Assembly (NCBI GenBank): GCA_964016885.1
Contig: OZ024757.1
Coordinates: 41,664,001-41,728,000, forward strand
Origin: Eledone cirrhosa
Lineage: Eukaryota
DNA length: 64,000 nt
Direction of reading: 5' to 3'
The position numbers and the translations under genes were made by a program. Shown here in pieces: positions 1-18,810 of the stretch. Under the pieces are notes generated by a model that saw only the letters and a program-made list of their open reading frames with translations, searched no databases and was not told the origin of the DNA. Position 1 is the stretch's first letter; every line of letters begins with the position of its first letter.

Positions 1-185
1 TTTCTCAAATAATTTATTTTTTGTGATCATCTTTCTATTTCATATCTTCTTTCTCATTCTGTCTTCTGATGAAGGACTGGTGTCCAAAACGTAAAGACTC
101 TTTTCCTACTATATTAAGCATTAAACTAATATATTTCTTCATTGTACTGTGTCATTTGCTTTGCTCTTTCCATTTATTTTTTGCA
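1..185 (+). mobile_element. Penelope-like pseudo-LTR remnant, family H1 (left end beyond window), with hammerhead
   Basis: Hammerhead motif at 61-98 followed by a tail (AAGCATTAAACTAATATATTTCTTC..GTACTGT) homologous to 18811-18897 and to 13432-13518 on the minus strand; ends in (TA)n. Confidence 0.7.
61..98 (+). ncRNA. Minimal type I hammerhead ribozyme, probably inactive (GAAA to AAAA)
   Basis: GTCTT-CTGATGA-A-GGAC-tggt-GTCC-AAAAC-GTA-AAGAC: stem I GTCTT/AAGAC, stem II GGAC/GTCC; catalytic G12 replaced by A. Confidence 0.75.
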
Positions 186-230
186 TATATATATATATAT
201 ATATATATATATATATATATATATATATGT

Positions 231-1250
231 ATAACAGAGGAGTTTAAGACTGGCTGTCCATGGGAACTTCTCTATGCTGACGATCTGGCTCTTATGGCAG
301 AATCAGTAGAGGAGCTAGAGAATAAATTCCGGCTATGGAAACAGCAGTTGGAAGCAAGAGGACTGAGAGTAAATCTAGCTAAGACAAAAGTGTTGATGAG
401 TAGAAAAGAGGACAAAACCCTGATTCCGTCAGGGAAATGGCCATGTTCGATATGCAGAAAAGGAACTGGCATAAATTCTATAAAATGCACACAATGTAGG
501 TCCTGGGTACACAAGAGATGTAGCGGGATAGCAGGCAAACTAACAGGTAGGGAGAAATATGTATGCAGTAGATGTACAGGGAAGTTAGACAGTAGAAGTC
601 GCACTGATAGACACATTTTTCAAATGCGAGAGGGCGCTATAGAAGTGGTGGATAGCTTCCGGTACCTAGGAGATCAGATTAGCATGGGAGGAGGGTGTTC
701 CGAGGCCATAGTATCTAGAATAAGGACGGGTTGGAAGAAGTTTAGGGAGCTGCTTCCTCTGTTGACGAAGAAGGGTTTCTCCCTGCGTACGAAAGGCCGG
801 TTGTATGATGCCTGTGTGAGGAGCGCGATGCTGCATGGTAGTGAGACATGGGCAGCTACCGCAGAAGATATGCGACGGCTGGAGAGAAATGAGGCAAGCA
901 TGCTCCGTTGGATGTGCAGTGTAAATGTGCGTGAACGACCCAGCATAAATGTGTTGAGAGAGAAACTGTGTCTGAGAGGGATAGAATGTAGTGTACGGGA
1001 GAGGAGACTGAGGTGGTATGGACATGTGATGCGCATGGAGGATGACCGATGGGTGAAGAAGTGCCAGGAAATGCCAGTTGAAGGAAGACGTGGTAGAGGT
1101 AGACCACGAAAAACATGGGCGGAGGTGGTGAGAACAGACCTCAGATCATTGAAGCTCACGGTGGAGATGACGAGGGACCGTGACGAGTGGAGAGATGCTG
1201 TGCTGAATAAGACCCGTCCCACCCTTGCAAGCAGGGAAAAGCGGACGTAA
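231..1250 (+). CDS. RTE reverse transcriptase fragment with embedded PHD-like C4HC3 finger (444-575)
   Basis: Residues [11 protein letters not shown] onward of ORF 69..1250; the upstream part of that ORF is flank/microsatellite read-through. Confidence 0.88.
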   Translation: MTEEFKTGCPWELLYADDLALMAESVEELENKFRLWKQQLEARGLRVNLAKTKVLMSRKEDKTLIPSGKWPCSICRKGTGINSIKCTQCRSWVHKRCSGIAGKLTGREKYVCSRCTGKLDSRSRTDRHIFQMREGAIEVVDSFRYLGDQISMGGGCSEAIVSRIRTGWKKFRELLPLLTKKGFSLRTKGRLYDACVRSAMLHGSETWAATAEDMRRLERNEASMLRWMCSVNVRERPSINVLREKLCLRGIECSVRERRLRWYGHVMRMEDDRWVKKCQEMPVEGRRGRGRPRKTWAEVVRTDLRSLKLTVEMTRDRDEWRDAVLNKTRPTLASREKRT

Positions 1251-1277
1251 AATGATGATGATGATGATGATGATGAT
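231..1277 (+). mobile_element. 5'-truncated RTE-clade LINE, family R1 (RT C-terminal half, stop at 1250, (ATG)n tail)
   Basis: Open frame with LLYADDL (YADD 273-284), [27 protein letters not shown] and GRGRPRKTW, typical of RTE ORFs; begins abruptly after (TA)n and ends in a TGATGATGA tail. Confidence 0.95.
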
Positions 1278-1478
1278 ATCCAGCAGGTGTAACGTGAAGT
1301 TACTGTAAGTTCACCCAGGTGAGCACTCCATCATTACAACAGCAGAGGTCTAACAAGCTTTTGATTCCAGAGTCGGGCCAGATCGTTACTGATCGAACCT
1401 TTAGCTGATCAATAGCGAAATGCGCATCACCAATCAATAAACATAATGAAGGCTTAACAAATCATTCTTGTATTATTA
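1278..1478 (+). mobile_element. Fold-back non-coding element, family H2 (inverted distal piece plus body with hammerhead 3' half)
   Basis: 1359-1478 matches 17594-17714; 1280-1328 is the reverse complement of about 17766-17814; contains GAAA-TGCGCA-TC at 1417-1428. Confidence 0.7.
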
Positions 1479-1500
1479 TATATATATCTATATATATGAT

Positions 1501-1667
1501 ATATATTTAGTTAGAGAGTAAACAACAAAATATATAACTACTTCATTACCAATGTTAACATACGTCTAGTTGACTCATCAGACAGAGGGGTCACCCCTCT
1601 GTCTAGAGTCCTGAAACTTTTGGTAATGGAGTAGTTACATATTGTGTTGTTCACTCTCTAATTAGAT
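1501..1667. mobile_element. Imperfect palindromic element, family H3, with degenerate hammerhead on the minus strand
   Basis: Arms TAGTTAGAGAGTAAACAACAAAATATATAACTACTTCATTACCAA / TTGGTAATGGAGTAGTTACATATTGTGTTGTTCACTCTCTAATTA, centre AGACAGAGGGGTCACCCCTCTGTCT; minus strand reads CTGATGA-GTC-aacta-GAC (TCATCAG at 1575-1581). Confidence 0.65.
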
Positions 1668-1774
1668 AACTCTGTTTTATACATAGAGCGCTCTTTTTTC
1701 CTTTGCTTTTTCTTCGGAAATACTTAACATACTATATATATACTCAGTAGGAGAGATGAATGGTATATAAAGGT

Positions 1775-16369: not shown

Positions 16370-16635
16370 CCCTGGACCACATTCTTATTCACTGTTATAG
16401 GAGTTGACAGTCTGCCACAGGTGCAAGTCCCAGTAACAGTGGAGACTTTCAGCATTCTTGGCCCCTGGACTACATCCCTACTTACTGCTATCAGAACAGA
16501 GTTGGTTGCTTCTGACAGGACCTGCTGGAAGGAGTGTTAGAGGTCTCTGCCCCACCCAGAACCCTCTCAAGAATAAGTGGGCGAAGAAGAAGGCAAAGAA
16601 GGCAAGGAAGAAGAGGGCAAAGAAGAAGGCAAGAA
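16370..16635 (+). mobile_element. Old RTE-like 3' fragment, family R3, with (AAG)-rich tail
   Basis: GTTGCTTCTGACAGGACCTGCTGGAAG (VASDRTCWK) shared with about 32738 and 35042. Confidence 0.6.
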
Positions 16636-17470
16636 ATAAAATAAGAATTCTTCGAAACAAGAAAAACTATGTCAATGTGCAATAAATCGCAGCAATGTCT
16701 CGGTTTATGTTAGATTATGTTGCAATACCGATAAATATATTGACTAAAGATGTGGAAATAAAGAAGGACTGAGTAAATAAAGAGAGAATTAATTTTGACG
16801 AATTCATATTTATATTTCATAGAGAATATTAAAGTTTGGAATTATGTCTGGGAAAAAGCTAACAAATTTTAGGAAATTGATAGGATTTTAAAAATTCGAG
16901 GAGGAGGGGTAGGTGAGGTGGGGTGGGTCTGGTGTTGAGGGTGGGGTGTTGAGGGTGGCTAAAAAAGTACGAAATCAATTTAAAAAATAGAAACAGAATT
17001 TTTGTTGGTTTTGTTTCTGTTGTTGTTTTGTTTTAGTTGAGTAGGGAAGTTGTTTTGTTTTGTTTTTTTTCAAAAATTAAATAAGTGAATTTAAAATTTT
17101 TTGATAGTGTTATTTTGTGTATGGAGAGAGAGAATATGAAGAGAGAGAGAGGGAGAAAGTGAGAAAGAATATGAGGAGAGAAAGAGAGAGAGAGAACAGG
17201 AGACAAAGAGAGAATGTGTAGAGTGTTAGAAAGAGAGAGAGAGAATGTACAGTGTTAGAGAGTGAAAGAGTGAGTGAGAGTGTATAAAGTTTAGAGTGTC
17301 ATGGAGAGAATAAATTATTATTTAGAATAATAATTTAGTTATTGTTATATAATAGAATATTTTAATCATTGTAAAAATATTTTTCATTTAATTATTATCA
17401 ACTATGATACAATAGTGAGAGTAATACACACACATACACACACACATATATATACATATATATATATATA

Positions 17471-17815
17471 ATAAAAGGATGATTTGTTATGTCTTCATTA
17501 TGTTTACTGATGGGTGTTTCGCTATTGATCGGCTAAAGGTTCGATCTGTATCGATCTAGTCCGACTCTGAAATGAAAAGCTCGTTGGACCTCTGCTTTTG
17601 ATTCCAGAATCAGGCAAGATCGATACAGATCAAACCTTTAGCTGATCAATAGCGAAACACACGTCACTACTCAATAAATGTAATGAAGACATAACAAATC
17701 GTCCTTTTATTATATTTACACTCTGCTTAGTTCTACACCTCTATACCGACTGAAAACTACACATTGAGTGCTCACTCGGGTGCACCTACAGTACTGGACG
17801 TTACACCCACTAGAT
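17471..17815 (+). mobile_element. Fold-back element family H2 (inverted arms 17471-17580 and 17594-17710, plus distal tail)
   Basis: Arms pair over about 110 bp; GAAAC-acac-GTC half core near 17654; TTGAGTGCTCA at 17764. Confidence 0.8.
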
Positions 17816-18564
17816 GTATGTGTGCCTAGGCAGTATCGGTAGAGCGTCAAACAACATGCTGTGCAGCATATAAGAAACCATTATTATTATTATCATTATT
17901 AAAATAAATGATAAATAAAAAAAAAATAATAATAAAGAAATCATTATTATTATTATTATTTTACAAAAAAATCACACTTTTTGCAAAATTTCAATTTATT
18001 ATAACTTGACATATTGATAATATTTAACAGATAGACTTTATCTCTCCATCCCTCTCCCCCTTCCTCCCCTCCCCCCTTTTTTTCCTATAAACTACTTTTT
18101 TGTTAAATTACTGTAATAAATAAAACTTCCCATTAAGAGACGACCATTTTTCTAAGGCTAATTAAACATTTTTACTTATTCAAGAAATTACTTTATGTAT
18201 ATATATTTTTTTTTTCCTTATTTTTTTTATTCCGTCGTTCTTCTTCTTCTTCTTCTTCTTCTTCTTCTTCTTCTTAAAGTCTATTTTCAAAATTGTCAAA
18301 ATTCTGACACATTTCAATTTGTTTGTTTTTGTTATTTTATGTTGATTTTTTTTTTATATTCTTTCTTTCCTGTCTTTAAATTATTATTATCATCACCACC
18401 ACTACCATCATCATCATCATAATTTCTACAATCATCATCATCATAATAATAGTTATCATCAACCTCACCCACACCATCATCATCACCATCATCATCACCA
18501 TCATAATCATCATCACCATCATTACTACTACCATCATCATCAATTACATCAATATATATATATC

Positions 18565-18710
18565 AGGATTAAACCAGTTTTAAACTAGTAAGACTATTAT
18601 TTAGCAAAGTACTCAATACTTGGGATGGTGTGACTATATTAGAGAGAGTCAGGGCCCGACGGCTGAGCTCTTGCCACTTCAACAGCTAGTTCTGGCCTCA
18701 ACTCTTTCTT
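18565..18710 (-). mobile_element. Diverged relative of family H4
   Basis: AAAGTACTCAATACTT.GG and CCCGACGGCTGAGCTC shared with H4; terminal imperfect hairpin. Confidence 0.6.
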
Positions 18711-18772
18711 ATATATATATATATATATATGTATCACTCTTTACTTTCTATTTATCTTCTATTTCTATCTCT

Positions 18773-18810
18773 GTCTTCTGATGAAGAACTAGTGTTCGAA
18801 ACGTTAAGAT
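18773..18810 (+). ncRNA. Minimal type I hammerhead ribozyme, intact core (family H1 copy 18730-18897)
   Basis: GTCTT-CTGATGA-A-GAAC-tagt-GTTC-GAAAC-GTT-AAGAT; stem II shows a compensatory change relative to the other two copies. Confidence 0.85.

What the first reader, a model, noticed from the sequence alone, without database searches (positions are those of the whole stretch)
61..18810. Compensatory base change across three copies of the H1 hammerhead
Stem II is GGAC-tggt-GTCC at 74-85, GGAC-tagc-GTCC at 13532-13543(-) and GAAC-tagt-GTTC at 18786-18797. A G-C pair has become an A-U pair while the loop varies freely and CTGATGA is invariant. Stem III is only AC/GT with no loop (AACGTT), which cannot close within one molecule and implies pairing between two copies. 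This is within-window evidence of selection on RNA structure in the source elements.
Basis: partly seen in the sequence, partly recalled or inferred. Interest (0 to 1): 0.72.

Follow-up and report, generated by a model that had tools for sequence, protein, structure and literature searches.

The report
Decayed Penelope hammerheads; chance compensatory pair
These are three worn-out end pieces of a common jumping gene that carries a known type of predicted self-cutting RNA, and the matched pair of base changes in one copy occurs no more often in the genome than two random mutations would, so this is ordinary.

Summary
The three motifs are real and sit where stated. They are minimal type I hammerheads in the 3' pseudo-LTR of a Neptune-like Penelope element: RT, CxxxxCxxC linker and GIY-YIG motifs lie upstream on the same strand in longer copies. 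This motif class, its loopless ACGU helix III and its dimer model are published (PMC4209133).

Genome-wide exact counts at pair 10.2-11.2 are G-C 4320, A·C 160, G·U 151 and A-U 8, against 5.6 expected from independent mutation (OR 1.43, p 0.22). The 8 A-U copies are rejected as one clade. The catalytic G8 mutates to A just as often (152), so genomic copies decay neutrally.

The conclusion is still right for another reason. Covariation is fixed between families: GGGC/GCCC in 438 exact copies (at most 4 expected), plus helix I swaps. One side lead: that family keeps the core and helix II but has at most 1 bp of helix I in 27 of 28 sampled copies.

The scan noted other Penelope hammerhead families in this genome before; a sequence look-up for this family found nothing.

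The parts
1..185 (+). Copy 1: 5'-truncated 3' pLTR fragment of the Penelope-like element (older A-type subfamily), ending at a (TA)n microsatellite; may begin before the window
   Evidence: nearest held loci 82-85% identical
61..98 (+). Minimal type I hammerhead, copy 1: helix I GTCTT/AAGAC, extra A after A9, helix II 74-85, G12A at a CpG, H17 = A at 93; predicted inactive
   Evidence: effect of G12A from own knowledge
13432..13730 (-). Copy 2: 3' pLTR fragment of a young, abundant subfamily, starting at a splice-acceptor-like TTCAG and ending at (CA/TA)n
   Evidence: 39 best other genomic hits 95-96% identical; upstream of such copies lie RT and GIY-YIG motifs
13519..13556 (-). Minimal type I hammerhead, copy 2: matches the subfamily majority, 4-bp helix I, helix II GGAC-TAGC-GTCC, intact core
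13731..13794 (-). 3'-end fragment of the same pLTR, without the hammerhead, directly upstream of copy 2
   Evidence: blastn, 81%
15229..15300 (-). 3'-end fragment of the same pLTR, no hammerhead
   Evidence: 82%
18733..18896 (+). Copy 3: 5'-truncated pLTR fragment between (TA)n runs; best other genomic hits only 79-85% identical over the 136-base query
18773..18810 (+). Minimal type I hammerhead, copy 3, with private G10.2A (18787) and C11.2T (18796) transitions; helix II weaker (-2.0 versus -3.7 and -4.4 kcal/mol)
38628..38677 (-). 3'-end fragment of the same pLTR, no hammerhead (outside the finding's coordinates)
   Evidence: 94% to copy 2

Best explanation
The three loci are 5'-truncated, neutrally decaying 3' pseudo-LTR fragments of a Neptune-like Penelope retroelement carrying a minimal type I hammerhead, and the A-U pair in copy 3 is most likely two independent transitions that arose after insertion. 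Shown: motif anatomy, family size, linkage to an RT-GIY-YIG frame, neutral mutation spectrum, and covariation fixed between families at other pairs. Inferred: in the source element, a read-through RNA with two pLTRs would let two motifs pair through ACGU/ACGU to build helix III and cleave after H17, probably weakly or with help from the element's protein. Reverse transcription from the 3' end into (TA)n/(CA)n then left thousands of solo fragments under no further constraint. Selection on structure acted only in the master lineages. No cleavage was tested here.
For: 2x2 table 4320/160/151/8, expected 5.6, p 0.22. Pair-breaking A·C is as common as tolerated G·U (p 0.65), and core G8A (152) is as common as stem G10.2A (p 0.69). 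The 8 doubles are not one clade. Of 35 copies changed on both sides of this pair, 22 are A/T; 7 of those 22 break another helix II pair, and no hairpin occurs more than 3 times (hand count). Upstream frames carry YIDD, CSRSRCNTC, and CSLC..YIGQT..EH..RH; Pfam RVT_1 hits at E 1e-5 and 6e-4, both below the curated cut-off. Two same-strand motifs 3455 and 3524 bp apart in L130 and L131. Family-level covariation: GGGC/GCCC 438 against at most 4.0 expected, with intermediates 161 and 106; helix I U-A versus C-G and C-G versus U-A. PMC4209133 describes this motif class.
Against: The odds ratio is above 1 and its interval reaches about 3, so a small excess of A-U is not excluded. Copy 3 and one other A-U copy of the same subfamily (L038) are not rejected as a clade (p 0.28), so a tiny A-U sub-lineage is possible. 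In the filtered BLAST sets non-CpG core positions changed less than the 3' flank (4 of 290 versus 41 of 812), though that comparison is biased by the motif filter, by A-rich composition and by ungapped columns. Pfam did not hit the GIY-YIG segment; that call rests on visible motifs. No RNA data could test expression or cleavage. L130 and L131 are decayed, and in L130 other sequence lies between the upstream pLTR and the element body.
Confidence: 0.87

Rival explanations
1. One reading: copy 3 descends from a minor master element in which G-C had been replaced by A-U under selection for helix II.
For: The double change keeps the helix. Observed 8 versus 5.6 expected. Copy 3 plus L038 not rejected as a clade.
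Against: Not significant (p 0.22), even though mixed copy ages should raise the expectation. L038 is only 72% identical to copy 3 and ranks 55th among its neighbours, while the nearest copy is G-C at 91%. None of the 29 best other hits to copy 3 has both changes in the central copy, while single changes are common. The A-U helix is less stable.
Confidence: 0.08
2. The motif is kept in master elements as a structural element (RNA dimerisation or protein binding) rather than for cleavage. This concerns function and is compatible with the chance origin of the A-U pair.
For: The GGGC/GCCC family has 438 exact core-plus-helix II copies, yet contiguous helix I is 0-1 bp in 27 of 28 sampled copies. 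PMC11167929 (passages) found cleavage unnecessary for in vitro insertion and no RNA-seq read ends at the cut site. PMC4209133 reports low in vitro activity.
Against: Catalytic core letters are shared by families A, B, B' and C. Helix I covaries in families A, B' and C. PMC11167929 shows protein-assisted cleavage with C3-G8 rescue.
Confidence: 0.25
3. The copies are units of a non-autonomous tandem retrozyme rather than truncated PLE ends.
For: Many copies are short and sit between microsatellites. Many sampled copy-3-type loci start near the same point. A pair of same-strand motifs 174 bp apart appears in a listing. Li et al. 2026 link retrozymes to pLTRs.
Against: Window copies are dispersed monomers. 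Copy-2-type loci extend 5' by variable lengths straight into the GIY-YIG and RT frame.
Confidence: 0.12

Closest known systems
Minimal hammerheads (min-HHR) of metazoan Penelope-like elements; Cervera and De la Pena 2014, PMC4209133 (parts 1-2 of 4 read: abstract, results, discussion, part of methods; supplements not opened)
   Same: Type I topology in the pLTR, no loop 3 with palindromic 15.2-16.2, extra nucleotide between 9 and 10.1, G10.1-C11.1, 4-5 bp helix I, mostly solo copies from truncated elements, several families with compensatory changes per genome, dimer model.
   Different: Helix II is 4 bp here against 7-8 bp in Schistosoma. One family has about 1 bp of helix I (the shortest in the text read is 2 bp, D. 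virilis). This genome's families are not named in the text read; its supplements may list molluscan motifs.
Neptune/Nematis-type EN+ PLEs; Craig et al. 2021, PMC8557442 (passages)
   Same: [quoted passage not shown]
   Different: Clade not placed by phylogeny here; Neptune and Nematis share the linker.
Anolis Poseidon PAc hammerhead; PMC11167929 (passages)
   Same: pLTR hammerhead of an EN+ PLE; gives the protein-assisted cleavage model.
   Different: There the ORF starts inside the motif. Here the long frame begins several hundred bases downstream of the 5' motif in L131. Activity is untested here.
Metazoan non-LTR retrozymes; Li, Clavereau and Pollet 2026, 10.64898/2026.07.22.740005 (part 1 of 5 and passages); PMC7229834 (search listing only)
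   Same: Type I HHR, relation to PLE pLTRs, dispersed monomers.
   Different: Retrozymes are defined as tandem non-coding units; the window copies are monomers, and the copy-2 subfamily is attached to a coding element.

Membership tests
PLE minimal type I hammerhead | Core CUGANGA ... GAAA ... UH around helix II, closed by helix I | tested here: met
   Copies 2 and 3 intact; copy 1 has G12A
PLE minimal type I hammerhead | No loop 3; palindromic 15.2-16.2 | tested here: met
   ACGT in all three copies and in families B, B' and C
PLE minimal type I hammerhead | Extra nucleotide between 9 and 10.1; G10.1-C11.1 | tested here: met
   11 of 11 aligned rows
PLE minimal type I hammerhead | Located in pLTRs flanking a PLE frame | tested here: met
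   Copy-2 subfamily: L130 and L131 have two motifs around the frame. Copies 1 and 3 only by homology of the pLTR.
PLE minimal type I hammerhead | Self-cleavage as a dimer | not testable with these tools
   No raw RNA reads offered. Cofolding gave no full hammerhead dimer as the minimum-energy fold for copies 2 and 3.
EN+ Penelope-like element, Neptune/Nematis type | RT upstream of a C-terminal GIY-YIG in one frame | tested here: met
   625-aa stop-free frame in L130 holds YIDD and YIGQT; RVT_1 below cut-off, no Pfam GIY-YIG hit
EN+ Penelope-like element, Neptune/Nematis type | CX2-5CxxC linker and CCHH motif | tested here: met
   CSRSRCNTC; CSLC, EH, RH, compared with the description in PMC8557442
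EN+ Penelope-like element, Neptune/Nematis type | RT phylogeny places it in Neptune | not tested
   No reference PLE proteins were at hand
Non-LTR retrozyme | Tandem non-coding units, each with an HHR | tested here: not met
   Window copies are dispersed monomers; not excluded elsewhere in the genome
Covarying pair 10.2-11.2 (the finding's claim) | Double change above independence and inherited by a lineage | tested here: not met

The most novel reading that the evidence does not exclude
A sister family that amplified to at least 438 exact copies kept the catalytic core and fixed a compensatory helix II change while losing helix I almost entirely. Its hammerhead would then either get helix I from another partner (spliced exon, other RNA or target strand) or be selected for a job other than cutting. 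That would make the open question of what PLE hammerheads do testable by comparing natural families.
Probability: 0.2. Interest if true: 0.5.

Novelty: new member of a known kind. Interest (0 to 1): 0.15.

Why it matters
As given it matters little: minimal PLE hammerheads, their dimer model and family-level compensatory changes were published in 2014 (PMC4209133). The result is a useful caution. With thousands of decaying copies, about 0.17% (8 of 4639) carry this double change by chance, so some window will always show it. Covariation in repeats has to be scored between master lineages, not between individual copies. The family set here (helix I of 5, 4, 3 and about 1 bp on one core) is a convenient natural series for testing whether cleavage is needed.

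Tried and rejected
Rfam: no hammerhead model hit the 111 bases around copy 2; the whole-window listing was swamped by microsatellite matches.

RNA evidence: 6 runs listed, all kept as contigs, 1 on record as RNA with a small share; cleavage ends could not be tested. Laying four runs on the copy-3 locus gave no usable orthologue from the second organism (3 records laid, none on the motif).

GAGC/GCTC copies first looked like a family with A-U at 10.2-11.2. Searches show they are rare mutants of the GGGC/GCCC family.

the identity values were faulty (tiny overlaps scored) and the clade test included a copy from another family. Both were redone and only one search is used. Window copy 1 was skipped by the extraction, so it is not in the tree; it was placed by blastn.

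An open antisense frame over copy 2 was considered and dropped, since the real frame is on the hammerhead strand upstream.

Constrained folding of the first 8 family-B-binned copies found no shared alternative helix I within -80/+60; these were mostly decayed copies.

The shuffle control ignores relatedness and its 11 rows were hand-picked, so it is descriptive only.

Literature searches showed no paper on these particular families; the squid genome paper PMC6962438 (passages) only counts 235 hammerhead matches.

Full report
Observation. The three helix II sequences are at the stated coordinates. Each is preceded by CTGATGA plus one extra A, followed by (G/A)AAACGT and H17, and closed by a 4-5 bp helix I. 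Copy 1 has G12A and ends its helix III region in AACGTA, not AACGTT. The copies are homologous over about 160 bp (74-80%), and three shorter 3'-end fragments of the same repeat lie at 13731-13794, 15229-15300 and 38628-38677. A contig from a public run reproduces 18776-18885 exactly.

What the repeat is. The genome is 3.0 Gb and microsatellite-rich; 'octopus-type' is my guess and also appears in an earlier scan note, untested. The core pattern with helix II GGAC/GTCC has 4320 exact matches. The best hits to copy 2 are 95-96% identical and extend 5' by variable lengths. Six of the longest run into a frame with YIDD, a CSRSRCNTC linker and CSLC..YIGQT..EH..RH. Pfam gives RVT_1 at E 1e-5 and 6e-4, below the cut-off, and no GIY-YIG hit. 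The domain order and linker match the Neptune/Nematis description in PMC8557442. Two of those six loci carry a second same-strand hammerhead about 3.5 kb upstream, the pLTR-ORF-pLTR layout. The window copies are therefore 5'-truncated 3' ends. PMC4209133 describes this minimal hammerhead: no loop 3, palindromic 15.2-16.2, an extra base after A9, dimer model, mostly solo copies, low activity in vitro, and families with compensatory changes.

Test of the claimed covariation. With identical flanks, pair 10.2-11.2 is G-C 4320, A·C 160, G·U 151 and A-U 8, the window copy included. Independence predicts 5.6; OR 1.43 (0.69-2.96), p 0.22, or p 0.34 without the window copy. Mixed copy ages should push the ratio above 1 even without selection (inference). 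The pair-breaking mismatch is as frequent as the tolerated wobble (p 0.65). G8A in the catalytic core, at 152 copies, is as frequent as the stem change (p 0.69). With helix II removed, the 8 A-U copies are rejected as one clade among 122 rows (AU p 9e-5), and 8 of 8 have a nearest neighbour that is not another A-U double. Against my reading: copy 3 with L038 alone is not rejected (p 0.28). A relaxed search for any change on both sides of this pair gave 35 matches; by hand count 22 are A/T, 7 of those break another helix II pair, and no hairpin occurs more than 3 times. The loop is nearly fixed within subfamilies: 0 of 104 cells changed in 26 of the 29 copy-2-type loci, and 4 of 116 in 29 of 29 copy-3-type loci. 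G12 differed in 6 of those 29, as expected at a CpG.

Where real covariation is. A search with different flanks returned 867 matches. In the first 100 listed I counted by hand 61 with G/C at 10.3-11.3, 16 with A/T, 12 with a longer hairpin GGCTG..CAGCC, and 11 others. Exact counts: GGGC/GCCC 438, A·C 161, G·U 106. The A-U class is at least 4320 (a stricter flank, so a lower bound), giving at most 4.0 expected and OR at least 110. This is one or a few events inherited by many copies, not 438 events. Helix I also swaps between families: U-A versus C-G next to the core, and C-G versus U-A at the third pair (hand-picked rows). Loci of these families also neighbour related PLE coding remnants on the motif's strand (L079, L095, L106, L120). 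So selection on structure in source lineages is supported, but by evidence outside the window.

Mechanism. Inferred from the papers: two motifs, from tandem pLTRs in one transcript or from two RNAs, pair through ACGU/ACGU, a weak duplex (about -1.7 kcal/mol), and cleave after H17. The element's protein probably helps, as shown for the Anolis element, where cleavage was not needed for in vitro insertion (PMC11167929). Solo genomic copies are relics. Nothing here tests cleavage.

Side lead. In the GGGC/GCCC family contiguous helix I is 0-1 bp in 27 of 28 binned copies, against 4-5 bp in 60 of 74 family A copies (bins by rough flank rules, partly decayed copies). This is the only part that could surprise a specialist.

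Verdict. New member of a known kind; interest 0.15.

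Noticed in passing
L100-L121 (e.g. L100 minus strand, motif near 1502 in the oriented locus): Family with GGGC-TTAT-GCCC, 438 exact copies, has an intact core but only about 1 bp of helix I. Both changes from GGAC/GTCC are A-to-G type (one per strand), which could be chance or RNA editing; not tested.
   Followed up: partly
L127/L128 (G000:C1:77651883-77652180): Family with a 5-bp helix II, 10-nt loop and 5-bp helix I; two copies lie about 260 bp apart on opposite strands. 12 of the first 100 matches.
   Followed up: partly
L124 +2471 and L050 -2576 (oriented positions): Two related copies with GGGC/GCCC share GACACGT in place of GAAACGT and N7 = A: possibly a family with a changed core letter.
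   Followed up: no
window 13726-13730 (-) and L040-L068: A pyrimidine tract plus CAG about 175 nt upstream of the hammerhead looks like a 3' splice site, as PLE pLTRs have introns; splicing not tested.
   Followed up: no
window 230-1250 (+) and 23585-25387 (+): LINE-type reverse transcriptase fragments followed by a PHD finger (Pfam). The first begins just after the (TA)n run that follows hammerhead copy 1.
   Followed up: partly
window 33028-34125 (+): 365-aa stop-free frame with a weak apolipoprotein-like (coiled-coil) Pfam match below cut-off, possibly a LINE ORF1.
   Followed up: no
window 43597-43729: Near-perfect inverted repeat with arms of about 55-60 bp including microsatellite ends.
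   Followed up: no
L131 minus strand, oriented about 5100-5200: A different GIY-YIG remnant (CPQC..YIGET) just upstream of the 5' pLTR on the opposite strand.
   Followed up: no
G000:C27:9145064-9145288: Four hammerhead cores within about 225 bp, three of them 50 bp apart: a short tandem duplication of the motif (listing).
   Followed up: no
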